Source of the DNA: a virus
Lineage: Duplodnaviria; Heunggongvirae; Uroviricota; Caudoviricetes
Strand: one strand, 5' to 3'
DNA length: 64,000 nucleotides
Virus record (IMG/VR): IMGVR_UViG_3300042561_002062
Coordinates: 85,525-149,524 of that record
Shown: one piece after another, positions 9,872 through 63,162 of the stretch
Numbering within the stretch: the stretch's first letter is position 1
How the letters are laid out: the number at the start of each line of letters is the position of its first letter
The notes under the pieces: model-generated
Told to the model about the DNA's origin: nothing
Databases searched by the model: none
Seen by the model: only the letters and a program-made list of their open reading frames with translations
Program-made: the position numbers and the translations under genes

Positions 9872-10003
9872 AAAACTCAAACCACGAGAAAATGAAACTA
9901 TTATTTATAGTGATACTATAATAATAAAGAAAAAAAGATATGAGTAAATATTCTAAATTGAAAAGATTCATACGAAGTAACTAAAATTATTAAATTTTCA
10001 ATA

Positions 10004-12764: not shown

Positions 12765-12958
12765 AAAAAAATCAAAATACGCACTATATAGAAATAATAA
12801 AACAAATAATACAAAGAAAAATCTTCCACTGAATATCTATAAATCGCAGTCCTTTACACACATGGTTTTTAGATCTAGTCAATCCTCAAGAAAAAGATAA
12901 GGTTGATTCAGTATCTGATAATTTTAATATAATTACTTTCAATAAAAAACTCAACACG

Positions 12959-13720: not shown

Positions 13721-13722
13721 AA

Positions 13723-14748: not shown

Positions 14749-14751
14749 ATC

Positions 14752-15603: not shown

Positions 15604-15607
15604 GGCG

Positions 15608-16201: not shown

Positions 16202-16703
16202 TTTCTTTTTCTCCTAAATTTCTGTTTCTACTACGAATTTTATACCAAAACATATCTAAGATGGTAGAAATAGATTCTCTGTCTAGGTTATCTTCAACAT
16301 TGTATCCAAGATAGTATCCATTTTCTGGATCATACTGAATTATAAGTGGTTCTACATCAAATTCACCCTCTATTGGATCAAATTCATCCTCTACTGGCTC
16401 AAATACTAGCTCGTAGTTTGTAAATGCTGTTTTGAATTTAAGTCCAGCGAAAGTATAGACTTTATCTCCGTTTGTAATCTCTGTGCCGATTGGAAATTCC
16501 GAATAAAATTCTTCTTCAAATCTTTCTCTAGCAAGTTGATTTACACGGGATAATTTTTCTGTTTCTTCACTTGCCACATCACCAGACATTCTCCATTCAT
16601 AATCTTGTGTGCGATCCATGATATCAGAATATGTTTCACTCCTGAGTTCGTTTATTTTTTTATTGAAACCGTTCCAAGAATCAATCTTCGTAGTTTTTTT
16701 CAT
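16194..16703 (-). CDS. hypothetical acidic protein
   Basis: 169-aa ORF. Confidence 0.4.
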   Translation of the reverse strand: MKKTTKIDSWNGFNKKINELRSETYSDIMDRTQDYEWRMSGDVASEETEKLSRVNQLARERFEEEFYSEFPIGTEITNGDKVYTFAGLKFKTAFTNYELVFEPVEDEFDPIEGEFDVEPLIIQYDPENGYYLGYNVEDNLDRESISTILDMFWYKIRSRNRNLGEKEND

Positions 16704-16816
16704 AAAATTTTATCTTTTTTTCTATATATAAAAAAATTCTTCTATTTTTTCTAAATAGACACTTTTTTCTACATATAAAAAAATCCAACTTTTTTAGGGT
16801 TGGATTTTCTTTTGAT

Positions 16817-35382: not shown

Positions 35383-36264
35383 ATGAAAACATTCAACCTG
35401 GCCCATCCCGAAAAATCCGAGGTCAAATTCAAAATAAATCGATTTCCTGACGGACAGCAATCTGTTACTATTGAGGACGCTCCTGCGTTTCTTCAAGGAC
35501 ATGATATCAGAATCAAAAGCCGAATGAATAACTTCAAAGATTTGGAATTGATTATTTGTGCAAACCAAGCGCTACGTAACCTTTTTGTATCATCAGTTAG
35601 TCTTTACCTTCCATACTTCATGGGAGCTCGTTCTGACCGCCGATTCACCGAAGGTGATGTTCACTACCTTAAACAAGTCATTTGTCCTATCATCAATTCT
35701 CAGAACTTCAATAGCATCACTGTATTGGATCCTCACTCTGATGTATTAGAAGCCTGCTTGGATAACTACCAAAAGATCGACAATAGCAGAATTGTAGAGC
35801 AAGCTCTTACTGATATTGACAACAGTGATGGTGCTCAGAACAGAATTGTATTGGTCTCTCCTGATGCTGGGGCTTACAAAAAAATATTTGATGTAGCACA
35901 AAAGTTTGGTATCAATAGGATCATCACCGCCACAAAAGTTCGCGATATTAAGACTGGTAAAATTCTTCACACAGAAATCCCTACTCTAGACCAAGCCGAA
36001 GATCTGAAGTACGTAATTGTTGATGACATCTGTGACGGTGGCCGAACCTTCATTGAACTTGCTAAAGCTATTCACGGTAGCCGTCCTACTGCTAAGGTAT
36101 ACCTGGTAGTTACACATGGTATCTTTAGTAATGGATTTCTAGAACTTAGTAGAGAACTAGAAAAGATCTACTCCTCCAATAGCTATTCTGATCGTAATGA
36201 TATTGAACACGATAGTCAATACACAGTTGCCAAAGAATTCCTCAAACAATTTAACGTATTCTAA
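35383..36264 (+). CDS. divergent PRPP-synthetase homolog (candidate ADP-ribose pyrophosphokinase, Adps-like)
   Basis: PYFMGARSDRRF (Prs PYFGYARQDR-like), VIVDDICDGGRTF PRPP loop, VVTHGIFS; much more divergent than the canonical prs at 22912. Confidence 0.55.
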   Translation: MKTFNLAHPEKSEVKFKINRFPDGQQSVTIEDAPAFLQGHDIRIKSRMNNFKDLELIICANQALRNLFVSSVSLYLPYFMGARSDRRFTEGDVHYLKQVICPIINSQNFNSITVLDPHSDVLEACLDNYQKIDNSRIVEQALTDIDNSDGAQNRIVLVSPDAGAYKKIFDVAQKFGINRIITATKVRDIKTGKILHTEIPTLDQAEDLKYVIVDDICDGGRTFIELAKAIHGSRPTAKVYLVVTHGIFSNGFLELSRELEKIYSSNSYSDRNDIEHDSQYTVAKEFLKQFNVF

Positions 36265-40471: not shown

Positions 40472-41950
40472 ATGAACCCACTACTTCTTACCGATGGATA
40501 TAAGACAGGCCATCACCAACAATACCCAAGGGGCACAACACTTGTCTATTCTAACTTTACCCCACGATCGAACAAATACGGCCCGAAAGGTTGTGACAAG
40601 GTCGTTTCATTTGGTCAACAAATGGTCATGCAACAACTACACGAAGTTTTTCAAAGAGATTTCTTCTCTAGACCAAAAGATCAAGTATGTGGTGAGATGA
40701 AACAAGAACTCTCGATGTATCTAGGTATAGACTACGATGTTAGCCACTTTGAAGCACTGCACGATCTAGGCTATTTGCCTATCGCAGTTCAGGCGCTCTC
40801 TGAAGGAACGCTGGTTCCTATCAAGGTTCCAGTGTTGACGATCTACAACACTCACCCAGATTTCTACTGGCTGACCAACTACCTGGAGACTATTTTGTCT
40901 AATTTGATGTGGAAACCTATGACAAGCGCAACCATCGCCCACCAGTACAGAAAAGTTCTGACCAAGTGGATGGAAAAGACCGACAAGGAAAACGCCTGGT
41001 TTATTGATTGGCAAGGGCACGACTTCTCTATGAGAGGTATGGACTCTGCCGAAGCGGTAATCTCTTCTGGCTTGGGTCACCTTACATCTTTCTCTGGAAC
41101 CGACTCGCTGCCTGCTATTCACGGAGCCCGCAAGTATTACGGTGCTGAAGGTTTCGTCGCCGGTTCGGTGCCTGCAACCGAGCACTCGGTAATGTGTGCT
41201 GGAGGCAAGGAAGATGAAGAATCCACCTTCCGCCGCTTGCTAGAGACTTACCCCAAAGGAATTCTTTCGGTTGTATCTGATACTTGGGATCTCTGGAGAG
41301 TATGTACTCAACACGTGGTGGCTCTGAAAGAAGAGATCTTAGCCCGTGATGGTAAGTTGGTTATCCGTCCTGACTCAGGCGACCCAGCTGATATTCTTTG
41401 TGGATTAAATACTCGCTCTAAATTGGTAAGTTTGGTAGATGAAGATCATCCCTCATATAAAGGAGTTATTGAATTACTTTGGGATGTATTCGGAGGAACT
41501 GTAAACGAACAAGGTTACAAAGTTCTTGACCCACATATCGGAGCAATCTATGGTGATTCTATCACAATCGAAAGAGCCGACGAAATCTGCAAACGTTTGG
41601 AAGCCAAAGGATTCGCATCAACCAACGTGGTACTAGGTATCGGTTCATTCACTTACCAGTTCAATACTCGTGATACATTTGGTTTCGCTATGAAGGCAAC
41701 CTACTGCGAGATTAACGGTCAAGGCCAAGAGATATTCAAAGATCCTATCACGGACGATGGTACCAAAAAATCTGCAACCGGCTTGCTCTGCGTGACCAGA
41801 GACGAGTACAGCGGAGAGTACATGCTGACGGACCGAGTTGATTGGACAACCGCTCAATCAGGTGATCTCAAAACAATTTACCGTGACGGATCGTTTGAGA
41901 ACACAACTACTCTATCCCAAATACGGGAAAACTTAAAGAAAGACCTATAA
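40472..41950 (+). CDS. nadV: nicotinamide phosphoribosyltransferase family protein (NAMPT/NadV, or the homologous Namat)
   Basis: 492 aa; MNPLLLTDGYKTGHHQQYP, GHDFSMRG, GTDS, RPDSGDP: NAMPT family hallmarks. Confidence 0.8.
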   Translation: MNPLLLTDGYKTGHHQQYPRGTTLVYSNFTPRSNKYGPKGCDKVVSFGQQMVMQQLHEVFQRDFFSRPKDQVCGEMKQELSMYLGIDYDVSHFEALHDLGYLPIAVQALSEGTLVPIKVPVLTIYNTHPDFYWLTNYLETILSNLMWKPMTSATIAHQYRKVLTKWMEKTDKENAWFIDWQGHDFSMRGMDSAEAVISSGLGHLTSFSGTDSLPAIHGARKYYGAEGFVAGSVPATEHSVMCAGGKEDEESTFRRLLETYPKGILSVVSDTWDLWRVCTQHVVALKEEILARDGKLVIRPDSGDPADILCGLNTRSKLVSLVDEDHPSYKGVIELLWDVFGGTVNEQGYKVLDPHIGAIYGDSITIERADEICKRLEAKGFASTNVVLGIGSFTYQFNTRDTFGFAMKATYCEINGQGQEIFKDPITDDGTKKSATGLLCVTRDEYSGEYMLTDRVDWTTAQSGDLKTIYRDGSFENTTTLSQIRENLKKDL

Positions 41951-44784: not shown

Positions 44785-45807
44785 ATGGAAAGAAAACTAG
44801 CAACTTTAAGAAGAATAAAAAAACTGATGCCTATTGAAGGAGCAGATGCCATAGAACTAGCTCTTGTGGATGGATGGCAAGTTGTAGTAGCAAAAAATGT
44901 TGGATATCGTCAGGGAGATCTAGTTATCTACTGCGAGATAGATTCTTTTTTACCGATTAGAGAAGAGTTTGAATTTTTACGTAGAACATCTTATAAAAAA
45001 ATGGCAGATAGGGAAGGATTTCTTCTTAAAACTATTCGGCTACGCGGTCAAATTTCTCAAGGTTTGATACTTCCTATTACCGTTCTAGGTGATGATACAT
45101 CTGGATTATACGAAGGTATGGATGTTACTGAAAAATTAGGTATCGTTAAATACGAAGCACCAATACCTGCATCTTTACAAGGAAAGGTTAAGGGTAATTT
45201 TCCATCATTTATTCCTAAAACAGACGAAGAAAGAGTTCAGAATCTAGAAAAAGAATACAATGAACTAAAATTCAGTTCTAAACATCAACTTTACGTAACT
45301 GAAAAATTAGATGGTTCTTCTTATACGGTCTATCTTAATCGTGGTGAATTTGGTGTTTGCTCACGAAATCTTGAACTATTAGAAACAGAGGATAACACCT
45401 ATTGGAAAGTAACCAGAGATCTTAAAATAGAAGAAAAGTTAAGATCACTTGGTAGAAATATATCTCTACAAGGTGAGCTTATTGGTGAAGGTATCCAAGG
45501 AAATCCATACAAACTTCGTGGGCAGACAGTAAAGTTTTTCACCGGATATGATATAGATAGAGGGCAGCGTATTGGTATTCGTGATTTTTTAAATTTACTT
45601 AAAAATCTTGGGCTTGAAAGTGTTCCGGTTCTTCAAATGGGTGATTTTACCCTACCGGAAACTGTATCAGATATGCTAAAATGGGCAGAAGGTCCGTCGG
45701 TTCTTAATCCGAACTTTCCAAGAGAAGGTGTAGTAGTCCGTAGTCTTGATGGAACTGTCTCTTTCAAAGCTATATCAAATCAATTTCTTCTAAAAACAGG
45801 TGGTTAA
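44785..45807 (+). CDS. ATP-dependent RNA ligase (KxDG)
   Basis: VTEKLDGSSY motif I, 340 aa. Confidence 0.65.
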   Translation: MERKLATLRRIKKLMPIEGADAIELALVDGWQVVVAKNVGYRQGDLVIYCEIDSFLPIREEFEFLRRTSYKKMADREGFLLKTIRLRGQISQGLILPITVLGDDTSGLYEGMDVTEKLGIVKYEAPIPASLQGKVKGNFPSFIPKTDEERVQNLEKEYNELKFSSKHQLYVTEKLDGSSYTVYLNRGEFGVCSRNLELLETEDNTYWKVTRDLKIEEKLRSLGRNISLQGELIGEGIQGNPYKLRGQTVKFFTGYDIDRGQRIGIRDFLNLLKNLGLESVPVLQMGDFTLPETVSDMLKWAEGPSVLNPNFPREGVVVRSLDGTVSFKAISNQFLLKTGG

Positions 45808-52132: not shown

Positions 52133-53014
52133 GTGAAATCTTTCAACCTTCTTAAACCAACACCACTTGTTAAACTAAATTTTAGTAGAAAAACTATCTG
52201 GGGAAAAGCAGAATATCTCAATCCTTCTGGTTCGGTAAAAGATAGACCAATTAAAAATATCTTAGACAGAGCTCAAGAGGCAGGATTACTCAGAGTGGGT
52301 GATACCATTATTGAAGCTACCAGCGGAAACGCTGGTATTTCTTTTGCTATGATGGCCGCAGAAAGAGGAATGCGTTGTGTGATTGTGATGCCAAGTAACA
52401 TGAGCGAAGAAAGAAAAAAAATGCTCCGAGCTTACGGAGCAGAGCTTATCGAGGTCGATCCGGGAGATTTTGACGGAGCTATCGCCTTACGTGATAAACT
52501 TTCTAGAGAAAACGGATGGTTTAATGGAAATCAATTTCACTCCTCTTGGAATATAGAAGCTCATCAGATAGGAACAGGACCAGAGATAATCTACCAATCT
52601 CGTATGAATTGTTTTATACCTTCATGTTTTGTTTCTGGAACAGGAACAGGCGGAACTATAATGGGCGCTGGAGTTCTACTCAAAGAATACTACACCGGTA
52701 TGAAACTCGTAGCGGTTGAACCAAAAGAAAGTGCAGTAATGAGTGGTGGCACGCCTGGTCTTCACGGTATTCAAGGTATAGGTGATGGGTCTAAATTTTT
52801 AGTTGATCTTCAGGTTTTGGATAGTATAATAACTATCTCAACTGATGAAGCTAAAGAATTTACTCTTGAACTTTCAAGAAAGTTTGGTGTTTTTGTAGGT
52901 TTTTCAGCGGCGGCTAATGTTTTAGCTACATTAAGATTTTTAGAAGAAAATGATCTAGATAACGGAGTTACAATACTCTGTGATAGAGGAGATAGGTATT
53001 TAAGTATGCTCTAA
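52133..53014 (+). CDS. cysK: cysteine synthase / PLP-dependent beta-substitution enzyme (CysK/CysM family)
   Basis: NPSGSVKDR, TSGNAGIS (PLP-binding), GTGGT motifs. Confidence 0.8.
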   Translation: MKSFNLLKPTPLVKLNFSRKTIWGKAEYLNPSGSVKDRPIKNILDRAQEAGLLRVGDTIIEATSGNAGISFAMMAAERGMRCVIVMPSNMSEERKKMLRAYGAELIEVDPGDFDGAIALRDKLSRENGWFNGNQFHSSWNIEAHQIGTGPEIIYQSRMNCFIPSCFVSGTGTGGTIMGAGVLLKEYYTGMKLVAVEPKESAVMSGGTPGLHGIQGIGDGSKFLVDLQVLDSIITISTDEAKEFTLELSRKFGVFVGFSAAANVLATLRFLEENDLDNGVTILCDRGDRYLSML

Positions 53015-53035: not shown

Positions 53036-53982
53036 TTAAAGACTCAGTAACATATCCACCATTTCCTTTGAAGGATAGAGATCATTTTTATCAGTTCTAA
53101 CATTTGTGTGTAACCACATTCCTTTAGTTCTCTCGCAAAGTTCTCTATCCATTAAGTTAAAAGCATCAAATGCGCCTCTTTTTACAATCTCTTGAACAAT
53201 ACCACGTTTAGGATCAATATCGTCTCTTTTGGAAATCTCTAAAATGAGTTGTCTAGTAGATTCAATTTGCCGAGTAGAGTATTTATGCCAAGCTATATGA
53301 CCACGGAAAGGTTTATCTAGAAATTCTATCTGCTCTGAATTGGGTATAACACCGGTGTAGGTATAGTAAGTTTTTTCTTTGCCCCTTTTCCAAACTGTTC
53401 TTCTTGGATTTTCAAGAGTAACGTAATATCCTTCATAAAATAATCCACCAAAGCTACATATTTCTATACCAACACTTTCCATATGCATAGTATTTCTACC
53501 GGTTCCTAAGTGCCATCCCCATCCACCAGTAGGAAATGCCTGAACGATTTGACCGTCATAATCATCGTACAAATCTCTAATGTTTTGACCACCTACTACC
53601 CACTCGGTTGCTACTTCACCTCTCGGGTCTCCCGCCCACCCATCTATGGTATTGAAGGGATTTTCCAACCAGCTGTATGGTGAAGAAATATCCACCATTT
53701 TTTTGTGGGGCCTTGAAAATATTCATCTTTTGGTAGGTATTTTTTTTTGTAAGTAAAAACATTTTGACCAACATCATATCTTTCATAAGAATCGGTTGTA
53801 GCAAGACCCATTGCTCTCCAAGTTTGAGGTCCAACAACACCATCGGCAATTAACCCATTTTCTTCTTGCCATTTCTTTACAGCTCTCTGGGTTGCTCCAC
53901 CAAAAACTCCATCTGCCGGGATATTTAAAAATTCTTGTAGTCTTTTGACTAGTTCAGATATGGATCCAACTTGTAGTATCAT
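53036..53982 (-). pseudogene. frameshift-disrupted endolysin: PG-binding domain + N-acetylmuramoyl-L-alanine amidase (Amidase_2/PGRP)
   Basis: ORF 53644..53982 has PG_binding_1 and ends WIFLHHTAGW (start of the amidase domain); ORF 53036..53698 continues the amidase domain (NTMHMESVGIEICSFGG) in the -1 frame; the shift lies in the overlap around GGAAAATCCC. Confidence 0.65.
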
Positions 53983-54828: not shown

Positions 54829-55039
54829 ATTATAGATTATATATAATTTTTACGGAACAAATAAAGATTGGATCTTTGTATTAAGATTAAATCATCATTT
54901 ATCAATAAAAATTTATAGTTTCTGATTCATTTTCCTTCCAGACTCGAGGAGTTTCTTCTTACTATTAAGTAGGTCAATCAAAAAAAAAGAGGGATTGATT
55001 ACTTTCAATCCCTCTTTAATCAAGTAGAATTTAGCTTAT

Positions 55040-56890
55040 TTATACCTTAGCTACTTCTTCTTGACGCTTTTCAGAAAGTTGCTTTAAGAGCTCCATACCT
55101 AAAAGACCGTTGATTGGACTTGAGTCTCCGTTACCAGAGATAAGAACCTCAGGAATGATTTTGATACCATTCACACCAATCATTTCAGTAACTTTAAGCT
55201 TACCGAAGTTATCTTGACCCATCGCCATAACTTGTTTTTCATAAGCCTCGGCGGTTGATTTACCGATAGCTGCGATTCTATCGGCTTCGGCATCCCCGGT
55301 AAGTCTGATTTCTGTAGCTTGCGCGTCAGCGTTTAGTTTTTTCGCTTCGGCTTGAGCGGCGGCTTCTAGTTTAAGAGCCTGTGAAGCGCCTTCAGCATCT
55401 TTGATCTTAGCTTCAGCTCTACGTTGAGAGATTTCAACAGATTGTTGTGCGGTTACCATTTGATCCTGCATGTTTGCTAGAGCTTTTGCTGATTCAAGAG
55501 TTTTACGCTTATCTTGAGCTCTTCGTTGAGTATCAAAAGTAATCTCTTCTTCAGAGGCAATCTTTCGATCCGTAAGAGTTTTCATAAGTTCACTAGGTGG
55601 TACAATATCACCAATAAGTGTATCTACCGCGTGAACGTTGTATTCTTCTAGAACTTGACTGATTTTTTCTTTCGCCGCGTTTTGACGTTGCTGACGTGTT
55701 GAGAGAAATGAGATCACATCTGAATCTTGAGCTGAGTTTCTAAAGTAGTTACCGATAGTTGGCTCAAGAACTTGGGATACAAGATTAGACATTGATCCAA
55801 ACCTAGCGATTACTTTGGGCGCCTCAGTAGATGGAACGTGAATAATCTGTGAAACATCTAGATTGAATGGGAAACCATCTTGAGAGCGGACAGTAATTGT
55901 ACTCAAGTTTTTATCTAGATTGTGTGATTCGTTACGAGCAGTAGCCCAGTTAAGAACAAGATTTGTAGTAGGAACGATTTCAATTTTCTGTGTGTAGGGA
56001 TTGATTGCGTATTTCCCTGGATCCAAGACCGAAGCCCAAACACCTTTCTGGCCACGTTTTACGATATTACCGTGCTTAAAACCATCACCAGTAGTATCTT
56101 CACCTTCTTCACCAACGTAAGAGATTACCACACCAACGTGACCAATCGGAATAGAAGTCATCGCTGCTTTTTCAATCTCAACTGCCCAGGGGTTCAGTGA
56201 ATAGAGACCTGCTTGGATAACTTGGATTTGAAGACCTCTTTGACCACCCTTGGATAGGAACTTATCAAAATCTTGGAAGTTATTGTGAGATTCAACAATG
56301 GAACCCGCGATAGAACCTACTTCGAGGGGCACCCCGTCAAGCGCAGTTACTACACCTACCATACCATCTTCAATAGATGTAATATCGGTGAGAAAAATCT
56401 CAAAAAGATGTGTGTTTACACGATATACACCATTGTTAAGATATCCAACTTGCTTTCCTCGCTGGCCACCTTTTGTAAGAAAAGCTCTAGCATCTTGATA
56501 ATCATCACAATCCACGTGCCTAGCTAAGATAGCTCCTTTTGGTAGTTGAACACCGTCTTTAGCCGAGATAAGACCCATTTTTCCCTTTGGGATTACTACT
56601 AAAGGTGCTTGATTGATTTCATACTGCCAAATCCAGTAACCCCAGTAAAGACCAGGAGCTAGTGTATCGGCTTGAAATCCTGGTTCATTGTTCAGGGCGA
56701 TAATCTTACCATCAGGTAGAGATTTATTTGCGCCCCAGAGTACAAATTTTTTGGTGACTAGACCAATTTTGTCTTCAGGTATAATAACCATACCGAAAAA
56801 GACCCGTAGTATAAACTTGTAGAATACTACCATGAGGATTGGAATAGTCACCCAGGACCATTCCAAAATGAGTTGAAGAATTTCTGTCAT
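55040..56890 (-). CDS. SPFH/band-7 flotillin-like membrane protein
   Basis: N-terminal TM, SPFH core, long C-terminal Ala/Glu-rich coiled coil (EAKIKDAEGASQALKLEAAAQAEAKKLNADAQA) as in YqiK/flotillin. Confidence 0.7.
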   Translation of the reverse strand: MTEILQLILEWSWVTIPILMVVFYKFILRVFFGMVIIPEDKIGLVTKKFVLWGANKSLPDGKIIALNNEPGFQADTLAPGLYWGYWIWQYEINQAPLVVIPKGKMGLISAKDGVQLPKGAILARHVDCDDYQDARAFLTKGGQRGKQVGYLNNGVYRVNTHLFEIFLTDITSIEDGMVGVVTALDGVPLEVGSIAGSIVESHNNFQDFDKFLSKGGQRGLQIQVIQAGLYSLNPWAVEIEKAAMTSIPIGHVGVVISYVGEEGEDTTGDGFKHGNIVKRGQKGVWASVLDPGKYAINPYTQKIEIVPTTNLVLNWATARNESHNLDKNLSTITVRSQDGFPFNLDVSQIIHVPSTEAPKVIARFGSMSNLVSQVLEPTIGNYFRNSAQDSDVISFLSTRQQRQNAAKEKISQVLEEYNVHAVDTLIGDIVPPSELMKTLTDRKIASEEEITFDTQRRAQDKRKTLESAKALANMQDQMVTAQQSVEISQRRAEAKIKDAEGASQALKLEAAAQAEAKKLNADAQATEIRLTGDAEADRIAAIGKSTAEAYEKQVMAMGQDNFGKLKVTEMIGVNGIKIIPEVLISGNGDSSPINGLLGMELLKQLSEKRQEEVAKV

Positions 56891-56993: not shown

Positions 56994-57752
56994 TCAAATT
57001 TTTGTAACCGTATTCTCCCAAACGTTAACACCTCTTAGTTGATATCGGAGTATCCACCTTTCTAATGCGAGACCGCACCTTTCTATATGATGTTTGTGTA
57101 TTATTTCTGGTGTAGGTGAAATATTTTCAGCCAATCGATAGTAATGCATTTTTTCATATAGATCATAATATTTAGACATTGTTGAAGAATCACCATAAAC
57201 AAAAAGATCACCCACACCACCACACCAATCAAAACCGTGTGGTATTTTTATTATTCCCTCGTTTATTTTTTGAATGTTTGGATTCTCGAGAAACTGAAGA
57301 TCGAATCTACTACCTATAACTACATCATACCTGAAACTATTTTTTGTCTCCCATTCTTCTCTTAGTTTATTGGCTGAGAATTTTTTATACCACATAGAAA
57401 AAATATTCAAGGTTTTAGTTTGTGAATCTTGGTCTATTCTCGAGTCGAGTAATCCCACCTCTCTTTCAAGAAATTGCTTAGAAAATTCGGTGAAGCAGTC
57501 CGCTTGAAAACTTATGGGTGCATACATCTCTAATATCTCATCAATATTTGAATCATCCTGTGGTGTTACTCCAAACCAAGAAGATGGAACTATGTTTTTC
57601 GAATCAGTCCATGAACTTATAAAAACATCAGGATTTAGTGTATTCAATAGAAACTCCTTTATAGAAGGATAGCACAATTTTGCATCTCTGAACTGACCAG
57701 ATAGAAGAAGTGCTACCTTCATACTAATTTTTTCACAAAAGAAATACCCCAA
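56994..57752 (-). CDS. hypothetical protein, paralog family LSGQFR...PDVFISSW
   Basis: MKVALLLSGQFRDAKLCYPSIKEF..PDVFISSWTD shared with two other genes. Confidence 0.45.
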   Translation of the reverse strand: MGYFFCEKISMKVALLLSGQFRDAKLCYPSIKEFLLNTLNPDVFISSWTDSKNIVPSSWFGVTPQDDSNIDEILEMYAPISFQADCFTEFSKQFLEREVGLLDSRIDQDSQTKTLNIFSMWYKKFSANKLREEWETKNSFRYDVVIGSRFDLQFLENPNIQKINEGIIKIPHGFDWCGGVGDLFVYGDSSTMSKYYDLYEKMHYYRLAENISPTPEIIHKHHIERCGLALERWILRYQLRGVNVWENTVTKI

Positions 57753-58375
57753 TCAAGAGGACTTTCACAACATTTTTCCACCGAGAACATATCTGGTCTA
57801 AAAAGATCAACTATTTTAGATGGTCCTGGATGTACATTGGTGTCGTGATACACAATATATCCTCCAGGTTTTACCATTTCAACCCATAGTAACTCATCTA
57901 TAACTTGATTTATCGAATGCCAACCGTCAATAAAAAGAAAATCAATTTCAGTGATCTCTAGCTCTCTAAATTTTTCTAGAACTCTTTGATAATATTCACT
58001 TTTTGAAATCAATGTATGTGTATTTGGAAATTTATGATCTAGGAAACTTTTATCGTCTATATCAATTCCAAGATATATTGTCTCTGGTGTTTTATACTTT
58101 GTTAGAATATATGTTGAGGTATTCTCGAAATTATTTCTAGATACACCTATTTCTACAATAACACCCGACTTTATATTTAATGAGAGAAATCTTTCGAGTA
58201 ATTTGAGTTGGTTACAATGTGAAAATTCTTGGTATGTTTGATACCCTGTTTGATTAGATATCAAACCATTATAATATATGGCAGACCAAATTTCAGGTGC
58301 GTCTTTGTTATCCATGTCATCGTTGAATGTTCTTGGATCTTCGACCAAGAATTTATTTATTAGTTGTTTTCTCAT
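57719..58375 (-). CDS. class I SAM-dependent O-methyltransferase (TylF/MycF/CmcI-like)
   Basis: VVEIGVSRN, IDFLFIDGWHS...GGYIVYHD. Confidence 0.6.
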   Translation of the reverse strand: MRKQLINKFLVEDPRTFNDDMDNKDAPEIWSAIYYNGLISNQTGYQTYQEFSHCNQLKLLERFLSLNIKSGVIVEIGVSRNNFENTSTYILTKYKTPETIYLGIDIDDKSFLDHKFPNTHTLISKSEYYQRVLEKFRELEITEIDFLFIDGWHSINQVIDELLWVEMVKPGGYIVYHDTNVHPGPSKIVDLFRPDMFSVEKCCESPLDWGISFVKKLV

Positions 58376-58383
58376 ATTTTTTT

Positions 58384-59628
58384 TTAAAAATATCTATAGG
58401 CCAGATCGGGATTGAAATCCCTGTTCCCCCATTTTTGAATAGCTTGTAAATACTCATTTTCTTGATAGTGACCGTTTATTGATTGAATCATAGCAAGACC
58501 TCCTGCTTTTGTACCACTCGGGTGACCATGCATAGCCCCACCTACGTTAGCCATCCAATCAAAACTACCTAGAGATTGATTGATAAATCTAACAAGACCA
58601 GGATGCATACCACAACTCAAGGCCGGAACAATATTATAGTTCCATAAAACACTCAACGAAGTTTTCAGTTCTTCTTCGTCTTGATTCATGTATCCACCTA
58701 TCATACCAGCATGTATAGAATCTACACCAGACCAACCTGCTATTTTACAAATGACTGGCCAATATATATGAAAAGGCGCTCGTCTATCGGTGAAAAACTT
58801 ATCACCACTTTTTTGAAAATGTATCCACATCTTTGGATTTTGTTTTCTGATAGCTCTGTAAACACCAAGACCACTCCAAACATTGATGTGAATACCGTTA
58901 CCTCCACCATCTTCAACAAGTTGAGCTCTTTGTAGAGCATATGGACTATCACCATTAATACAAAAACAATAAATCACATTTGGTGCATTTTTTTCTAACC
59001 ACCTTGATATTAATGGAACTCTTATATGCAAAGGGCAGTGGTCGGGATTTCCAAGAAGTTCATCTTCTTTGATGAAATTGACTCCTCCTTCAACCATTTC
59101 GATAACAGCTCTGAGTAAAACTTCAGGAGACATACCTACTTTAGGTTTTATTATTCCTCCAAAAAATGGTTTTTTGTGAACTCCGTTGAATTTTCTAAAT
59201 CCATCTATACCATAAGCTGGTTTAAGCCTAAACATAGATTCAATATTTTCTGGAAGAGTAATATCTAAAAGATGACAACTTTCGATTTCTAGAATATCTA
59301 CTTGACCACCTGCTGTATGACATAGGATTTGAGAGATGCCATCTTCTTCTAAATCTAGGTTCGCTAGTGGAAAAGCTATCTCTACAATAGACTCATTCAC
59401 GAGTCTAAGTTCAGATTCTTCTGCTAAAATTCTACAAGAGTGGTTTTCAAACATCTCGTCTGTTTCCCATACACTTCTATTTTTGGGATTTCCGATACTT
59501 TGACCTATAGCAAGATTAAGCGAAGCTTCGGCCACAGAAGTTTTTCCTCTTAGAAAATATTTAGCTATAAAATATTTTTCTAGATCAAGATCTTTTCGAT
59601 TACAAAATAAATTTATCATACTATTCAT
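58384..59628 (-). CDS. RuBisCO large-subunit-like protein (likely form IV RLP)
   Basis: GGIIKPKVGMSPEVLLRAVIEMVEGGVNFIKEDE aligns with RuBisCO GTIKPKLGLS..GGLDFTKDDE (K175, K177, K201, D203, E204 conserved; T173 replaced by I); DSIHAGMIGG = HIHAGTVVG; VGGAMHGHP = GGGTLGHP. Confidence 0.65.
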   Translation of the reverse strand: MNSMINLFCNRKDLDLEKYFIAKYFLRGKTSVAEASLNLAIGQSIGNPKNRSVWETDEMFENHSCRILAEESELRLVNESIVEIAFPLANLDLEEDGISQILCHTAGGQVDILEIESCHLLDITLPENIESMFRLKPAYGIDGFRKFNGVHKKPFFGGIIKPKVGMSPEVLLRAVIEMVEGGVNFIKEDELLGNPDHCPLHIRVPLISRWLEKNAPNVIYCFCINGDSPYALQRAQLVEDGGGNGIHINVWSGLGVYRAIRKQNPKMWIHFQKSGDKFFTDRRAPFHIYWPVICKIAGWSGVDSIHAGMIGGYMNQDEEELKTSLSVLWNYNIVPALSCGMHPGLVRFINQSLGSFDWMANVGGAMHGHPSGTKAGGLAMIQSINGHYQENEYLQAIQKWGNRDFNPDLAYRYF

Positions 59629-59969
59629 TATATCTCATACTTATCACTAGTTGATGATGGAGTTTTTATAATCACTAATTTACAATCTTCAAGAAAAACT
59701 GGATTTGCAATTTCCCAAGGCTCTAGTATAAAAATATCTCCAGAATTGAGTTCTCTATCTTGTATAATCATTCTTCCCTCAATAAGAAGATTTATCTCGG
59801 TTGATATTTTGTGATAATGTGTAGCCCAAATCTCACCTTTAGTATGAGTTTTATAACATACCTCGAAATCTTTTGTTCTAAAAGCGGATGGTGTGAAATC
59901 TCCAACAAACCAACCACCTATCATGTCGTTAAATTTTTCTATTTTCATAAAATGTTTTTGATATACCAT
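59628..59969 (-). CDS. cupin-fold protein (sugar isomerase/epimerase-like)
   Basis: 113 aa, two beta-barrel His motifs (HYH..E). Confidence 0.45.
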   Translation of the reverse strand: MVYQKHFMKIEKFNDMIGGWFVGDFTPSAFRTKDFEVCYKTHTKGEIWATHYHKISTEINLLIEGRMIIQDRELNSGDIFILEPWEIANPVFLEDCKLVIIKTPSSTSDKYEI

Positions 59970-60673
59970 TCTAAATCCTCGGGTGTACCGATAGGCCAGT
60001 GAAGATTATAGAAAAATGGTAATATTTTTTTATCCTCCTCTATAAGATAATTATAGGTTGGTGCGATGTAAAATTCGCCGTTACATCGTACATCATCACG
60101 AATAGTTTTATCTGCAGATCTCAGGAAATCATGACCATCTTTCCAGAAATGTAAACCATTGGTGGCAATGTTACTTATTCTTTCCTTTTCTCTTACGAGT
60201 GTTATCCATCCTCTTTCATCTAACTTTACATATGAATTTTTATGGGAGTTTGATATAAATGTTCCTAATAGACCATCCAAGTTATTATGGTTTATAAAAT
60301 TAAAAATATTGTCTAAATTGAAATCCTGAATGATTTGATCACAGTTGATGATCATAAGAGGTGACCTAGAAATGTACTCTCTAGCTAAAAGTGTTGTTGA
60401 AAGCGGACCTTCAGTTAATCTATCTAGAGAAATAATTCTTGGTGATTGGCAAATCTGGTTCAAGAGATTCGTTAAAAATCCATCTTCCAAAATTTCACCT
60501 TGGACTAAGAACGTCAAATTTTTAGTAATTCCTAAATTTTCTACTACTCTTTCTATCATAGGTTTTCCATTTATAGGTATAAGTGGTTTAGATAGTGTAT
60601 ATCCACTATCTAAAAATCTTTTACCAAGACCTGCCATCGGTATAATCACTTGTAAATCTTCTTTATAGATCAT
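59945..60673 (-). CDS. sugar-phosphate nucleotidyltransferase (GT-A-fold NTP-transferase)
   Basis: VIIPMAGLGKRF..LSKPLIPINGKPMI N-terminal nucleotide-binding signature. Confidence 0.7.
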   Translation of the reverse strand: MIYKEDLQVIIPMAGLGKRFLDSGYTLSKPLIPINGKPMIERVVENLGITKNLTFLVQGEILEDGFLTNLLNQICQSPRIISLDRLTEGPLSTTLLAREYISRSPLMIINCDQIIQDFNLDNIFNFINHNNLDGLLGTFISNSHKNSYVKLDERGWITLVREKERISNIATNGLHFWKDGHDFLRSADKTIRDDVRCNGEFYIAPTYNYLIEEDKKILPFFYNLHWPIGTPEDLEWYIKNIL

Positions 60674-62051
60674 ATTCTTTTATTTTTTTAAGGTAGTTGA
60701 ATAATCTCAAACTACCACTTTCTAAATTATAAAAATGGTTTTTCATCCAGAATTCTAAGTTCAAAGAATAACATCCTTGTTCATTATTTGATTCAAATAC
60801 AATAGTTTCTATCTTTTCTAATATTGGTGTAGGTATTGTTCTTATTATATTTAGAGCATCAATTCTTGAAGAAATCCTGAAGAAATCAACTTTATCTATT
60901 TCTAAATAATCGAATAATTTTATCCAATCTATATCTGGTGAAATTTTCAAAGGCACAACATTATCTCTATCTAGAACATTGTTTGCCAAACATGAAAAGA
61001 GGTGAGAATCCTCCTCTAAACTAAAAACTCGACTTGCTTTTTTTGCAACCCTATATGAAAAAAAACCATAACCGGCTCCTAAATCAATCACTACATCCTG
61101 ATCATTTACCTGGCATCCAAATCCTTCCCAAAGAGTTCCATTTCCAAAATAAGAATAAAAACTATCTTCATAAAATTCTCGCTCTATAGGATTAAAATTA
61201 TCAATATATTCAGTATGGGACAAAGTAGTATCATATAAATATCCCGAATCTTTATCAAAAACTCTCCACCTTTTTTCTAGCTCAACATTTAACATAAAGG
61301 AATATCTTAATTTTATTTTACTATCAAATCTTTCCAATACTATATTATTATGAGATAAATGGTAGCTTAGTATTATATGATTATTATGCTTCAATGTTTT
61401 TCCTACTTTATGATGTGGTTTGTTATAATTTAATCGGTAGTGATGTATGTGACGGAAAAGTTGACACACTTTATCAACAACAGATGAAGAACCCCAAAAA
61501 AATAGATCACCCAAACCACCATCATAATCATATCCACTCGCAAATTTTATTGTTTTAGGATTTATTGTGTTTACTAAAATAGGTTCGAAAAATTGAAGGT
61601 CAAATCTACAAACTATTACAACATCGTACAAAAACCCACACTTTCTTTCCCAGTCTTGTTTTAGTTTATTACATCTCATTATTTTATACCATTTACCCAA
61701 AAGTCTCATACAACCATCTCTTTCTTCATCACTTTGAGGGTCTGTAGATTCTATTATTTTAGAAAAATGTCCTCCAGGTTTAGGATCATAGGTTTCTAGT
61801 TCGAAAGAAATAGGATTATATAGTTCAACTACTTGAGTATGTGTAATATCATTTTCTGAAAATTGAGTATCGTACATAGCGTGTTGAACATCCAATGGGT
61901 TTTTCCAAGAACTTATAAAAATATCTGGTTTGTGAATATCAATAATATTTTTTTTGATACTTGGATAGCATTCCAAAGCATTTCTGTATTTCCCAGATAG
62001 ACACAAAGCTACTCTCACGGTATAATATCTTTTTTTGGTATAGCTATCCAA
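60663..62051 (-). CDS. two-domain protein: N-terminal LSGKYR...PDIFISSW paralog domain + C-terminal FkbM-family methyltransferase
   Basis: VRVALCLSGKYRNALECYPSIKK..PDIFISSW; C-terminal VVIDLGAGYGFF.. VFSLEED.. Confidence 0.6.
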   Translation of the reverse strand: MDSYTKKRYYTVRVALCLSGKYRNALECYPSIKKNIIDIHKPDIFISSWKNPLDVQHAMYDTQFSENDITHTQVVELYNPISFELETYDPKPGGHFSKIIESTDPQSDEERDGCMRLLGKWYKIMRCNKLKQDWERKCGFLYDVVIVCRFDLQFFEPILVNTINPKTIKFASGYDYDGGLGDLFFWGSSSVVDKVCQLFRHIHHYRLNYNKPHHKVGKTLKHNNHIILSYHLSHNNIVLERFDSKIKLRYSFMLNVELEKRWRVFDKDSGYLYDTTLSHTEYIDNFNPIEREFYEDSFYSYFGNGTLWEGFGCQVNDQDVVIDLGAGYGFFSYRVAKKASRVFSLEEDSHLFSCLANNVLDRDNVVPLKISPDIDWIKLFDYLEIDKVDFFRISSRIDALNIIRTIPTPILEKIETIVFESNNEQGCYSLNLEFWMKNHFYNLESGSLRLFNYLKKIKEYDL

Positions 62052-62209
62052 AGTACTAAATAAAATAAAACAGCGGGAAAGTTAGTGAAAAAAAGAAGTG
62101 ATAAAAATATAACTCTCCAGATCACCGGATCGGTATCAGTGTAACTTGCAAGTCCTTGGCAAACACCACTCAAATTGTCAGCATTTGGCTCTCTGTATAA
62201 TTTTTTCAT
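62015..62209 (-). CDS. PspC-domain small membrane protein
   Basis: LYREPNADNLSGVCQGLASYTDTDPVIWRVIFLSLLFF...WIAIPK is the PspC signature. Confidence 0.65.
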   Translation of the reverse strand: MKKLYREPNADNLSGVCQGLASYTDTDPVIWRVIFLSLLFFTNFPAVLFYLVLWIAIPKKDIIP

Positions 62210-62328
62210 AAGTTGATATATTTATATTTAGTAAAATGATAAATATCCTTAACTTAAAAAAAATCAATATTACAAAGTCTACCTAAATTATATTACCCTC
62301 TATAGGTATGAAAATAACTACTGGGCGA

Positions 62329-63162
62329 TCAAAGAGTTTGTTTATCTAATTTTTTTATTGCCAAAAACCCGTCGAAAGTTTCTACAACCCTTGCTGAATC
62401 CCTTCTGTTCCACATTTTATCAAGAGATAATAGCTTGTTTTTATCGATACCACAATTTCTGTTGGATATTTTCCCTTCATTGAAAAGTGCGATCATTTCT
62501 TCCATACTTAACGTAGGGTGATGTTTATCGAATTTTGGATCTGGGTGTGACCATCCGAATTTAAGTAGCCAGTTGATAAGTGCTTTTTTATTGGTGTCTT
62601 TGTAATCTTCGACCGTTCCGTTACCACTTCTCTTGGATAGTTTTTTTCCACCCTCAAAAAGAAGTCCCGCGTGAATAACCTCTGGAAAAGGTTTATCACC
62701 TTCAACTCTACAGATTTCTTCCCAGATTTTTTGCTGTTTCGGAAGATTGTTGATATGATCAACACCACGAATAATGTGCGTGATATCATAGTCGTAATCA
62801 TCTAGAATAGAACAAAAGTTATAGGTAGGAAATCCATTATTTCGAAGAATGACCATTTTATAATCACCCATATCAAGTTCTATACCGTTTTCACCGGGTG
62901 TTCCGATTTTTTCAGCAACTTCTTTATACCTATCCAACCTTTCAGATTGTCTAAAAGTAAGATCATAATCTAAACCAAAATTTTCCATTTGTTCGTAGAT
63001 ATAATCTATCCATTCGGGTCTGTTTCTTTCTTGGTCAGTATCATCGATACGAAGTATGAACTCACCTCCGTTAGCTCTAGCCATTAGATAGTTTAAAAGC
63101 GCTGTTCTTAAAGTTCCCAGGTGAAACTGACCGGTTGGACTTGGAGCTACTCTTGTTTTCAT
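62329..63162 (-). CDS. gluQ: glutamyl-Q tRNA(Asp) synthetase-like truncated class I GluRS (GluQ-RS/YadB-like)
   Basis: RVAPSPTGQFHLGTLRTALLNYLMARANGGEFILRIDDTDQER (HIGH-region GluRS core), 277 aa with no anticodon-binding domain. Confidence 0.7.
   Translation of the reverse strand: MKTRVAPSPTGQFHLGTLRTALLNYLMARANGGEFILRIDDTDQERNRPEWIDYIYEQMENFGLDYDLTFRQSERLDRYKEVAEKIGTPGENGIELDMGDYKMVILRNNGFPTYNFCSILDDYDYDITHIIRGVDHINNLPKQQKIWEEICRVEGDKPFPEVIHAGLLFEGGKKLSKRSGNGTVEDYKDTNKKALINWLLKFGWSHPDPKFDKHHPTLSMEEMIALFNEGKISNRNCGIDKNKLLSLDKMWNRRDSARVVETFDGFLAIKKLDKQTL

What the first reader, a model, noticed from the sequence alone, without database searches (positions are those of the whole stretch)
56994..62051. 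RuBisCO-like protein embedded in a sugar-nucleotide modification cluster
58384..59628 has the RuBisCO large-subunit core (KPKVGMS; carbamylation/metal site NFIKEDE; HAG and GG..GHP motifs) but T173 is replaced by I, as in form IV RuBisCO-like proteins that catalyse enolase, isomerase or decarboxylase chemistry on sugar phosphates. It is flanked by a cupin, a sugar-phosphate nucleotidyltransferase, a TylF-like O-methyltransferase, a fused domain+FkbM methyltransferase and a paralog-family protein. An RLP in a phage, inside an apparent glycan or nucleotide-sugar pathway, has to my knowledge not been described. It could build an unusual branched or keto sugar for virion or host-surface glycosylation.
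Basis: partly seen in the sequence, partly recalled or inferred. Interest (0 to 1): 0.85.

Follow-up and report, generated by a model that had tools for sequence, protein, structure and literature searches.

The report
Phage RuBisCO-like enzyme in sugar-activation module
A jumbo phage carries a non-carbon-fixing relative of RuBisCO locked into a conserved three-gene unit with a sugar-activating enzyme, which points to an undescribed role for this enzyme family in building surface sugars, although phage RuBisCO-like proteins themselves were already reported in 2018.

Summary
ORF 58384-59628(-) is a genuine RuBisCO large-subunit homolog (Pfam 1.9e-29). It keeps the Mg/carbamate core (K175, K177, K201, D203, E204, H327, S379, G381, G403/404) but has lost E60, T65, W66, N123, H294, H298 and K334, so it is not a carboxylase. 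It lies in a six-gene, overlap-coupled operon: GT-A glycosyltransferase fused to a methyltransferase, nucleotidyltransferase, metal cupin, RLP, methyltransferase, GT-A glycosyltransferase.

T173I is not diagnostic, because form III carboxylases also carry I173. Phage RLPs are not new: Jaffe et al. 2018 reported about 80, and this gene belongs to their "IV-like" clade.

What appears undescribed is the context. The nucleotidyltransferase accompanies the RLP in 80/83 viral/metagenomic and 34/37 cellular-collection loci. Fusions link all three proteins (nucleotidyltransferase-cupin in 16 loci; RLP-nucleotidyltransferase once). The clade also occurs in cellular genomes (Pelagibacter next to the rRNA operon, Verrucomicrobiae, Nonomuraea, CPR, DPANN), usually near glycan genes.

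Best reading (confidence about 0.6): the RLP rearranges a keto-sugar phosphate by enolisation, and the product is nucleotide-activated for glycan synthesis. Substrate, product and glycan target are unknown.

The parts
58384..59628 (-). RuBisCO-like protein (414 aa), non-carboxylating, member of the divergent phage/'IV-like' clade. Protein numbering: K161, K163, K187, D189, E190, H306, S338, G340, G363 and G364 retained; Q272, K273, D276, Y313 and C339 replace spinach H294, R295, H298, K334 and G380.
   Evidence: Pfam PF00016 1.9e-29. Every NCBIfam RuBisCO/RLP equivalog scores far below its cutoff. Active-site map against spinach numbering. Clade monophyly in a distance tree.
59628..59969 (-). 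Small metal-binding cupin (ORF aa; probable true start ATG 59948, 106 aa). Closest folds are sugar-isomerase cupins.
   Evidence: 341 homologs. Invariant H42, H51, H53 and E58 form cupin motif 1. AF2 pLDDT 92.8. Foldseek best hits are Thermococcus phosphomannose isomerases 7zvm/7zvy, the QdtA/FdtD 3,4-ketoisomerases and KdgF. Fused to the nucleotidyltransferase in 16 related loci.
59945..60673 (-). Sugar-phosphate nucleotidyltransferase (242 aa), the near-universal partner of this RLP clade.
   Evidence: PF00483 1.9e-7 and weak RmlA-long/archaeal GlmU-type NCBIfam hits. Best solved relative is 4evw, an NDP-sugar pyrophosphorylase, 2e-12. Present beside the RLP in 80/83 and 34/37 loci. Fused to an RLP in P0259. 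Homologs at 42% identity lie in glycosyltransferase islands of cultured cyanomyoviruses.
60663..62051 (-). Fusion protein: N-terminal GT-A-fold glycosyltransferase-like domain (DUF7796-like paralog) plus C-terminal FkbM-type SAM methyltransferase. Probable true start GTG 62018 (451 aa).
   Evidence: N-terminal domain aligns with the 242-aa paralog at 35% identity. DUF7796 hit 1.1e-3 and weak methyltransferase hits at residues 314-365. C-terminal domain against the window's FkbM methyltransferase, E = 2e-10. Start codon and 4-nt overlap with PspC.
57719..58375 (-). SAM-dependent methyltransferase (218 aa) of the Methyltransf_24 / CmcI / TylF sugar O-methyltransferase type.
   Evidence: PF13578 4.2e-7 and PF04989 1.3e-6. 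Homologous family directly downstream of the RLP in 11 of 75 dereplicated groups.
56994..57752 (-). GT-A-fold glycosyltransferase-like protein (DUF7796-like). Probable true start ATG 57722 (242 aa).
54986..55017 (-). Terminator-like hairpin (13-bp stem plus T-run) that closes the co-directional gene block after the SPFH gene.
   Evidence: It is a consensus match only; promoter-like hits in the region are at chance level.

Best explanation
The gene encodes a catalytically intact but non-carboxylating RuBisCO-like protein. It is one of three enzymes in a mobile module: nucleotidyltransferase, metal cupin, RLP. The module most likely turns a phosphorylated keto-sugar from central metabolism into a nucleotide-activated rare sugar or sugar-phosphate. 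Proposed steps, all inferred: (1) The RLP uses its retained carbamylated lysine (K187), its Mg site (D189, E190) and K161/K163 to remove a proton next to the carbonyl and rearrange the substrate (isomerisation or epimerisation). The phosphate is held by the conserved P1 glycine loops. (2) The cupin performs a further metal-dependent isomerisation or tautomerisation. (3) The nucleotidyltransferase couples the phosphate to an NMP. (4) In this window, the two flanking GT-A glycosyltransferases transfer the product and the two SAM methyltransferases O-methylate the resulting glycan, on either a virion protein or the infected cell's envelope. What is shown directly: homology, active-site retention and loss, operon packing, conserved synteny, gene fusions, the folds of the partner proteins, and the glycan-island context in phages and cells.
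For: Enolisation core retained and carboxylation-specific residues lost, with one fixed signature (GNPGIKKKDEQ[K/R]xHY.SCGGG) across a monophyletic clade down to 29% identity. Nucleotidyltransferase present in 80/83 viral/metagenomic loci and 34/37 loci from the cellular-genome collection; canonical order nucleotidyltransferase > cupin > RLP in 56 loci. Present in 68/75 groups after dereplication at 85%. Rosetta-stone fusions: nucleotidyltransferase-cupin in 16 loci and RLP-NTP_transferase in P0259. Cupin fold closest to sugar-isomerase cupins. Nucleotidyltransferase plus cupin mirrors the domain order of bifunctional PMI-GMP enzymes, and a paralogous nucleotidyltransferase in the same islands is fused to a beta-phosphoglucomutase-like HAD domain. 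In both cases the fused partner supplies the transferase's substrate. Flanking proteins are GT-A glycosyltransferases and methyltransferases. Gene junctions of -4, -11, -4, -1, +8 and -4 nt. Relatives sit in large glycosyltransferase/methyltransferase/epimerase islands. In a complete Pelagibacter chromosome the pair lies about 1.3 kb from the 23S rRNA gene, among GT9, CMP-sugar synthetase and HAD-nucleotidyltransferase genes. In Nonomuraea it lies next to a GT2. The window has a second sugar cluster at 6581-13720.
Against: No substrate or product can be named; nothing here is biochemical. No characterised RLP is biosynthetic or acts in a nucleotide-sugar pathway; all known ones act in salvage or catabolism. 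The minimal module has no kinase or mutase, so how a conventional sugar-1-phosphate would arise is unclear. The cupin is missing from most cellular loci (present in 11 of 37), so it is not obligatory. A truncated GDPD-like phosphodiesterase accompanies the RLP in 50/75 groups but is absent from this window, and its role is unexplained. The RLP-nucleotidyltransferase fusion rests on a single 2.5-kb contig. In the Verrucomicrobiae chromosome the module is not in an obvious glycosyltransferase island.
Confidence: 0.6

Rival explanations
1. The RLP and the cupin act after activation, on an NDP-keto-sugar. The nucleotidyltransferase first makes an NDP-hexose. The cupin then works as a QdtA/FdtA-type 3,4-ketoisomerase or RmlC-type epimerase, and the RLP enolises the NDP-keto-sugar, with its P1 site holding the diphosphate.
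For: QdtA and FdtD 3,4-ketoisomerases are among the best structural matches of the cupin. An SDR epimerase/dehydratase family lies near the RLP in 27/75 groups, and DegT-type sugar aminotransferases occur in several islands and in this window.
Against: The window's operon and the minimal Verrucomicrobiae module contain no 4,6-dehydratase or oxidoreductase to create the keto group. Every characterised RLP acts on a simple sugar phosphate (established knowledge). The fusion logic, in which the partner domain supplies the transferase's substrate, favours action before activation.
Confidence: 0.17
2. The RLP-cupin pair is a salvage route of the Rhodospirillum rubrum type. There an RLP isomerises 5-methylthioribulose-1-P and a cupin then releases methanethiol to give DXP. 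The phage version would process by-products of SAM use (MTA or 5'-deoxyadenosine derived pentulose-1-phosphates) during infection, and the glycan genes would be neighbours only.
For: RLP followed by cupin is a known consecutive pair in the MTA-isoprenoid shunt (PMC6302742). The Nonomuraea island also carries an AdoHcy-hydrolase-like NAD protein, a dNK-like kinase and a radical SAM enzyme. The phage operon holds two SAM methyltransferases.
Against: No MtnA, MtnK, MtnP or MtnB homologs were seen among the neighbours that were annotated, and none is among the most frequent neighbour families. The MtnW equivalog models score 106 and 80 bits against cutoffs of 409 and 514. The active-site signature differs from all other RLPs in the alignment. 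The constant partner is the nucleotidyltransferase, not the cupin, and it is physically fused to the RLP or the cupin in some genomes.
Confidence: 0.1
3. It is a working CO2-fixing RuBisCO, or a form-III-type enzyme of the AMP/nucleotide salvage pathway, carried as an auxiliary metabolic gene.
For: The best NCBIfam and several top PDB matches are form III or II/III carboxylases. The phage also encodes PRPP synthetases and NAMPT.
Against: E60, T65, W66, N123, H294, H298 and the loop-6 K334 are all replaced, invariantly across the clade. The form III model scores 145 bits against a cutoff of 497. No AMP phosphorylase, ribose-1,5-bisphosphate isomerase or phosphoribulokinase is adjacent, whereas true form III fusions with IF-2B isomerase do exist elsewhere in the superfamily.
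Confidence: 0.02
4. The RLP is a catalytically dead scaffold or regulatory subunit of the nucleotidyltransferase, or a decaying gene.
For: Many canonical RuBisCO residues are lost.
Against: The metal/carbamate triad, K175/K177, H327 and the phosphate-binding loops are invariant over a clade that has diverged to 29% identity. There are thousands of intact full-length homologs. Decay would not preserve exactly the catalytic core.
Confidence: 0.05

Closest known systems
Phage 'Form IV-like' RuBisCO-like proteins of Jaffe, Castelle, Dupont and Banfield (Mol Biol Evol 2018/2019, PMC6389311)
   Same: RLPs on large phage contigs, including IMG/VR contigs and ~200 kb genomes, some of them myovirus-like. 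Highly divergent from other RLPs, missing key RuBisCO residues, and grouping with Beckwithbacteria sequences. The window's clade has 130 IMG/VR relatives and a Beckwithbacteria relative at 49% identity.
   Different: That paper left the function unclear and says nothing about neighbours. Added here: the conserved nucleotidyltransferase-cupin-RLP module, the fusions, the glycan-island context, and a much wider cellular distribution (SAR11, Verrucomicrobiae, an actinomycete isolate, Elusimicrobia, many DPANN).
Rhodospirillum rubrum RLP (5-methylthioribulose-1-phosphate 1,3-isomerase) with the cupin MTXu-5-P methylsulfurylase, in the MTA-isoprenoid shunt
   Same: An RLP that enolises and isomerises a ketose phosphate, working with a small cupin encoded nearby.
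   Different: That pathway is salvage and has no nucleotidyltransferase or glycosyltransferases. The phage clade has a different active-site signature (H294Q, K334Y, G380C, loss of E60/T65/W66/N123) and is phylogenetically separate.
MtnW/YkrW 2,3-diketo-5-methylthiopentyl-1-phosphate enolase and OiaX 3-oxo-isoapionate-4-phosphate decarboxylase (characterised form IV RLPs)
   Same: The same superfamily and the same retained K201 carbamate / D203 / E204 metal site used for enolisation of a phosphorylated keto compound.
   Different: Scores are far below the equivalog cutoffs: 106 against 409, 80 against 514, and 108 against 700. There is no methionine-salvage or apiose-catabolic context.
Bifunctional type II phosphomannose isomerase / GDP-mannose pyrophosphorylase (ManC, AlgA, XanB)
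   Same: An NTP_transferase domain followed by a metal cupin isomerase domain, the same order as in the 16 fused homologs and in the adjacent genes of the window.
   Different: The cupin does not match the Pfam MannoseP_isomer model or any other Pfam cupin model at E <= 0.01. It is much smaller, and an RLP is added.
Glycan-synthesis islands of T4-like cyanophages (for example S-CAM9) and of giant viruses
   Same: Phage-encoded nucleotidyltransferase (42% identical, HAD-fused) among a nucleotide-sugar epimerase and several glycosyltransferases.
   Different: The cultured phages in the collection have no RLP; no phage record matched it.

Membership tests
RuBisCO large-subunit superfamily | Significant match to the catalytic TIM-barrel domain (PF00016) and the N-terminal domain (PF02788) | tested here: met
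   PF00016 at 103 bits against a cutoff of 30.1. PF02788 at 21.4 against 20.7. 99 PDB RuBisCO/RLP sequences matched.
RuBisCO large-subunit superfamily | Carbamylatable K201 with metal ligands D203 and E204, plus K175 | tested here: met
   K187, D189, E190 and K161 align to these positions. They are invariant in the clade.
Bona fide carboxylase (forms I, II, III, II/III) | Complete set of catalytic and RuBP-binding residues, including E60, T65, W66, N123, H294, H298 and loop-6 K334 | tested here: not met
   Replaced by G, N, P, G, Q, D and Y respectively. The form III equivalog model scores 145 bits against 497.
Bona fide carboxylase (forms I, II, III, II/III) | Pathway partners nearby (phosphoribulokinase, or AMP phosphorylase plus ribose-1,5-bisphosphate isomerase) | tested here: not met
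   None among the cluster genes or the recurrent neighbour families.
Form IV RLP, MtnW/YkrW enolase | Score above the NCBIfam equivalog cutoff, and methionine-salvage neighbours | tested here: not met
   106 against 409 and 80 against 514. No mtn genes seen among the neighbours annotated.
Form IV RLP, OiaX decarboxylase | Score above the equivalog cutoff, and apiose-catabolic context | tested here: not met
   108 bits against 700.
Form IV RLP, R. rubrum-type MTRu-1-P isomerase | Orthology to Rru_A1998 and a cupin methylsulfurylase partner | tested here: inconclusive
   A cupin partner is present, but no reference sequence or model for Rru_A1998 or Rru_A2000 was available. A profile of the cupin did not retrieve any such solved structure.
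Phage 'IV-like' RLP clade (Jaffe et al. 2018) | Encoded on large phage contigs, clusters with Beckwithbacteria, lacks canonical residues, deep branch relative to other RLPs | tested here: met
   130 IMG/VR contigs. Beckwithbacteria locus at 49% identity. Monophyletic clade that scores lower against every curated RuBisCO/RLP model than its nearest outgroups do. This is indirect: their sequences were not compared one to one.
Type II PMI-GMP (ManC/AlgA) | NTP_transferase followed by a MannoseP_isomer cupin domain | tested here: not met
   The domain order is the same, and the two are fused in 16 loci. However, the cupin has no Pfam match and only fold-level similarity to small archaeal PMIs, TM about 0.64.
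GT-A fold glycosyltransferases (for the two DUF7796-like proteins) | GT-A Rossmann-like fold | tested here: met
GT-A fold glycosyltransferases (for the two DUF7796-like proteins) | DxD-type metal/nucleotide-binding motif and demonstrated transferase activity | tested here: inconclusive
   Invariant D133, R139, D141 and D172 exist, but no canonical DxD was identified. Activity is not testable here.

The most novel reading that the evidence does not exclude
This clade is a new functional class of the RuBisCO superfamily. It would be a biosynthetic enolase/isomerase that, together with a dedicated nucleotidyltransferase, makes a so far unknown nucleotide-activated sugar or sugar-phosphate for surface glycans. 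The module would be traded among jumbo phages, SAR11 (at the rRNA-flanked variable glycan island), Verrucomicrobiae, actinomycetes, CPR bacteria and DPANN archaea. Phages would use it to decorate virions or to rewrite the host surface during infection.
Probability: 0.45. Interest if true: 0.8.

Novelty: new variant of a known kind. Interest (0 to 1): 0.6.

Why it matters
RuBisCO-like proteins are a classic case of an enzyme scaffold re-used for new chemistry, yet only a handful of functions are known, and all are in salvage or catabolism. The phage-associated clade was noted in 2018 and left without a function. The synteny and fusion evidence here gives that clade a concrete, testable assignment: it works with a nucleotidyltransferase, most likely to make an activated sugar for glycans. 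The clade has thousands of sequences and occurs in jumbo phages of lakes and in globally abundant SAR11 bacteria. If the assignment is right, it adds a biosynthetic role to the superfamily, predicts an unknown sugar in environmental surface glycans, and bears on phage-host recognition in the most abundant aquatic bacteria. A cultured carrier, Nonomuraea rosea JCM 17326, makes experiments feasible.

Tried and rejected
- The cluster DNA (blastn) and the RLP protein (tblastn) found no match among 50,697 deposited phage genomes. No cultured relative carries the RLP.
- The first alignment for the genome scan (A3, 18 sequences) was too diverse to give search patterns. A narrower alignment (A4) worked.
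- The context of the RLP-nucleotidyltransferase fusion P0259 could not be examined, because its contig is only 2.5 kb.
- I asked whether the 106-aa ORF upstream of the Pelagibacter nucleotidyltransferase is a diverged cupin. It is not (hhalign probability 0.1%).
- The promoter scan around the operon is at chance level, 33 found against 35 expected, so it was not used.
- The first neighbour clustering merged families through the fusion proteins. It was redone with strict mutual coverage.
- NCBIfam labelling of the ten nearest outgroup sequences gave no equivalog assignment, so the sister group remains uncharacterised.
- The reading that the nucleotidyltransferase is IspD/TarI-like (CDP-alditol type) could not be separated from a sugar-1-phosphate type. 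Hits to both kinds are weak.
- Considered and set aside: true carboxylase, MtnW enolase and OiaX decarboxylase (see the membership tests).

Full report
**1. What is in the sequence**

ORF 58384-59628 (414 aa) carries the motifs IIKPKVGMS, NFIKEDE, IHAG and VGGAMHGHPSG. It matches Pfam RuBisCO_large at E = 1.9e-29 (103 bits, cutoff 30) and the N-terminal domain just above its cutoff. Against NCBIfam it hits the form III, MtnW, OiaX and form II models, all far below their curated cutoffs: 145 against 497, 106 against 409, 108 against 700. The best solved relatives are 3nwr, an uncharacterised RLP, and form III or II/III enzymes at 100-119 bits.

The flanking genes are:
- a nucleotidyltransferase (PF00483)
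- a 113-aa cupin with a perfect motif 1
- a Methyltransf_24/CmcI-type methyltransferase
- two paralogous DUF7796-like proteins, 35% identical, one of them fused to an FkbM-type methyltransferase

Homolog alignments point to shorter true starts: GTG 62018, ATG 59948 and ATG 57722. With these, the junctions from PspC through the last gene are -4, -11, -4, -1, +8 and -4 nt. That is the packing of a translationally coupled operon. A strong terminator-like hairpin follows the next gene (SPFH) at 55017-54986. Promoter-like hits are at chance level.

**2. The genome is phage-like**

The window has 24 tRNA genes, 23 of them in a 4-kb array. PHROG matches include NAMPT, two PRPP synthetases, two RNA ligases (one of the T4 Rnl1 tail-fibre-attachment type), a Ro-like RNA-binding protein, endolysins, a DNA methyltransferase, a virion structural protein and a weak major-head hit. 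A structural protein has distant relatives in T4-like cyanophages.

Relatives of the RLP lie on 130 IMG/VR contigs of up to 518 kb. One related locus has a gp32-like gene three genes away. No deposited phage genome matches the cluster or the RLP.

**3. Active site**

I aligned the window's protein, six close homologs and 99 representatives of the superfamily. The representatives came from an exhaustive search of 1.84 billion cluster representatives, which gave 875 hits at E <= 1e-3 and 50 at <= 1e-30. Spinach RbcL served as the numbering reference. I wrote that sequence from memory and validated it: all 21 reference residues fall at their canonical numbers.

The window's protein and 26 other sequences share one signature:
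- Retained: K175, K177, K201, D203, E204, H327, S379, G381, G403, G404.
- Changed: E60G, T65N, W66P, N123G, T173I, H294Q, R295K/R, H298D/E/I, K334Y, G380C.

These 27 sequences, some only 29-36% identical to the query, form one exclusive clade in a distance tree. So the proton-abstraction and metal machinery and the P1 phosphate loops are kept. The residues needed for CO2 addition and for binding the second phosphate of RuBP are gone. It is an RLP, not a carboxylase.

Sequences in the same alignment with a complete carboxylase residue set (ETWNIKKKDEHRHHKM...) also have I173.

**4. Prior knowledge**

Jaffe et al. (Mol Biol Evol 2018, PMC6389311) already reported about 80 non-redundant RLP-related sequences on phage contigs, plus one curated ~200 kb phage genome. 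They noted that these group with Beckwithbacteria as an outgroup to other RLPs, and called the function unclear. My genome scan recovers a Beckwithbacteria relative at 49% identity, which ties the window's gene to that clade.

Their text does not mention glycosyl, nucleotidyl or any gene neighbourhood for the phage sequences. Searches for RLPs together with jumbo phages, nucleotidyltransferase, glycosyltransferase, nucleotide sugars, capsule or O-antigen, or genome neighbourhood found nothing relevant. The 2007 GOS paper had noted unclassified RuBisCO homolog groups in ocean metagenomes.

**5. The conserved module**

*Viral and metagenomic loci.* Of 83 RLP-bearing loci, 80 carry a homolog of the window's nucleotidyltransferase (71 within 700 nt) and 79 carry the cupin (67 within 150 nt). 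The order nucleotidyltransferase > cupin > RLP on one strand occurs in 56.

*Fusions.* In 16 loci the nucleotidyltransferase and the cupin are one protein of 343-874 aa. One representative, P0259 (667 aa, 52% identical), is an RLP fused to an NTP_transferase domain, although it sits on a single short contig.

*Neighbour families.* After dereplicating the RLPs at 85% into 75 groups, the families found near the RLP are:
- nucleotidyltransferase, 68/75
- a ~148-aa family, 50/75, mostly directly downstream
- stand-alone cupin, 42/75
- an SDR epimerase/dehydratase, 27/75
- the DUF7796-like family, 22/75
- FkbM methyltransferase, 12/75
- Methyltransf_24 methyltransferase, 11/75

The 148-aa family carries the N-terminal HRG...EN...E-D...HD motif of glycerophosphodiester phosphodiesterases. 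It aligns to a bona fide GDPD gene that neighbours the RLP in DPANN loci (hhalign probability 89%). The window has no copy.

**6. The partners**

*Cupin.* The model is confident (pLDDT 92.8). It is closest to the small archaeal phosphomannose isomerases 7zvm and 7zvy, the NDP-sugar 3,4-ketoisomerases QdtA and FdtD, and KdgF. Profile search also finds quercetin dioxygenase and the same PMI.

*Nucleotidyltransferase.* It is most like sugar-1-phosphate nucleotidylyltransferases, though weakly. A paralog in the same islands is fused to a beta-phosphoglucomutase-like HAD domain. That paralog, at 42% identity, is found in glycosyltransferase islands of cultured cyanomyoviruses such as S-CAM9.

**7. 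Not phage-specific**

A scan of one genome per species found 38 loci:
- A complete Candidatus Pelagibacter chromosome. The nucleotidyltransferase-RLP pair lies about 1.3 kb from the 23S rRNA gene, next to GT9, HAD-nucleotidyltransferase, a CMP-sugar synthetase-type cytidylyltransferase and a 2-hydroxyacid dehydrogenase. To my knowledge this is the position of the SAR11 variable surface-glycan region HVR2.
- Many SAR11 single-cell genomes.
- A closed Verrucomicrobiae chromosome, with RLP-nucleotidyltransferase-cupin as a compact unit.
- Nonomuraea rosea JCM 17326, with cupin-RLP-nucleotidyltransferase-GT2 on an integrase-flanked island.
- Elusimicrobia, Saccharibacteria, Beckwithbacteria and many DPANN archaea.

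The nucleotidyltransferase is adjacent in 33 of 37 of these loci, the cupin in only 10. Some entries are probably mis-binned phage contigs. One example is the 'Saprospirales' contig, which is 74% identical and has the same gene order.

**8. Interpretation**

*Shown:* a non-carboxylating RLP with an intact enolisation core; an obligate genomic, and sometimes physical, partnership with a nucleotidyltransferase and usually a sugar-isomerase-like cupin; flanking GT-A transferases and methyltransferases; and glycan-island context in phages and cells.

*Inferred:* the RLP rearranges a keto-sugar phosphate, the cupin adds an isomerisation, the transferase activates the product, and the glycosyltransferases and methyltransferases use it.

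The fusion pattern favours action before activation. In PMI-GMP enzymes and in the HAD-mutase fusion, the fused partner supplies the transferase's substrate.

Because the minimal module has no kinase or mutase, the phosphate that the RLP binds may be the one that is nucleotidylated. That would give a donor linked through a non-anomeric phosphate, as in CDP-ribitol or CDP-fructose. This would fit the frequent GDPD-like neighbour, but it is speculation.

The substrate, the product, the nucleotide and the glycosylation target (virion or host envelope) are unknown.

Rivals are action on NDP-keto-sugars, an R. rubrum-like salvage route (precedent confirmed), true carboxylation and a non-catalytic role. 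They are weighed in the rival section.

**9. Verdict**

The RLP call and the cluster reading are right. The novelty claim as worded is wrong, and one argument (T173I) is invalid. The finding is a member of a clade known since 2018. The conserved nucleotidyltransferase partnership and the glycan context look undescribed, and they give the clade its first testable function.

Noticed in passing
window 1894-6044 (+) and 17448-17532 (-): 24 tRNA genes, 23 of them packed into a 4-kb array covering most amino acids, including three tRNA-Met and a tRNA-Ile(tat).
   Followed up: no
window 6581-13720 (+): A second sugar-modification cluster: FkbM methyltransferase, class I/II aminotransferase, DegT/EryC1-type sugar aminotransferase, GNAT acetyltransferase, an unknown 375-aa protein and a GT2 glycosyltransferase. 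It suggests an N-acetylated amino-sugar pathway.
   Followed up: partly
window 62015-63162 (-): A 277-aa class I Glu/Gln-tRNA-synthetase catalytic domain with no anticodon-binding part (GluQ-RS-like by length, from my own knowledge). It is followed by a 64-aa PspC-domain protein whose stop overlaps the first gene of the glycan operon by 4 nt.
   Followed up: no
window 55040-56890 (-): A 616-aa SPFH/Band 7 membrane-scaffold protein directly downstream of the operon, ending at the only strong terminator-like hairpin of the region.
   Followed up: no
window 22768-23874, 35383-36264, 40472-41950 (+): Two PRPP-synthetase-like genes and a nicotinamide phosphoribosyltransferase: an NAD-salvage set of the kind seen in large myoviruses.
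   Followed up: no
window 18114-19577, 20167-21180 (-), 44785-45807 (+): A Ro/TROVE-like RNA-binding protein and two RNA ligases, one of the T4 Rnl1 tail-fibre-attachment type. This is a possible tRNA/RNA repair set next to the tRNA array.
   Followed up: no
window 52133-53014 (+): A cysteine-synthase-like PLP enzyme (PALP, E = 5e-65) in a phage genome; a possible sulfur-assimilation auxiliary gene.
   Followed up: no
window 53036-53982 (-): Two overlapping ORFs in different frames (112 aa and 220 aa). By eye they look like a peptidoglycan-binding domain and a cell-wall hydrolase domain. This could be a split or frameshifted endolysin; it was not tested with any tool.
   Followed up: no
L001 11236-11676; L013 11240-11698; L121 10703-11467 and others: A truncated (~148 aa) GDPD-like phosphodiesterase family lies directly downstream of the RLP in 50 of 75 dereplicated groups, and a full-length GDPD neighbours it in DPANN loci. 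The window lacks it. Its role in the module is unexplained.
   Followed up: partly
proteins P0331, P0352, P0293, P0300 (distant superfamily members, not in the window): Unusual fusions elsewhere in the RuBisCO superfamily: TIR domain + RLP (P0331), RLP + APH-type kinase in a 1265-aa protein (P0352), and IF-2B-type isomerase + form III RuBisCO (P0293, P0300).
   Followed up: no
L065-L069, L071, L074, L083 (GVMAG bins); L086 ('Saprospirales' MAG); protein P0125 ('Actinobacteria' MAG): Contigs carrying this phage-type module are binned in public data as giant-virus MAGs or as various bacterial MAGs. At least L086 (74% identical RLP, same gene order, same DUF7796-like gene) looks like a mis-binned phage contig.
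   Followed up: partly
L119 (Nonomuraea rosea JCM 17326, NZ_BAABDQ010000069) 795-17039: In a cultured actinomycete, the cupin-RLP-nucleotidyltransferase-GT2 set is followed by an AdoHcy-hydrolase-like NAD protein and a dNK-like kinase. A radical SAM gene lies nearby, and the set is bracketed by integrases and a transposase. This is a mobile island in an experimentally tractable carrier.
   Followed up: partly
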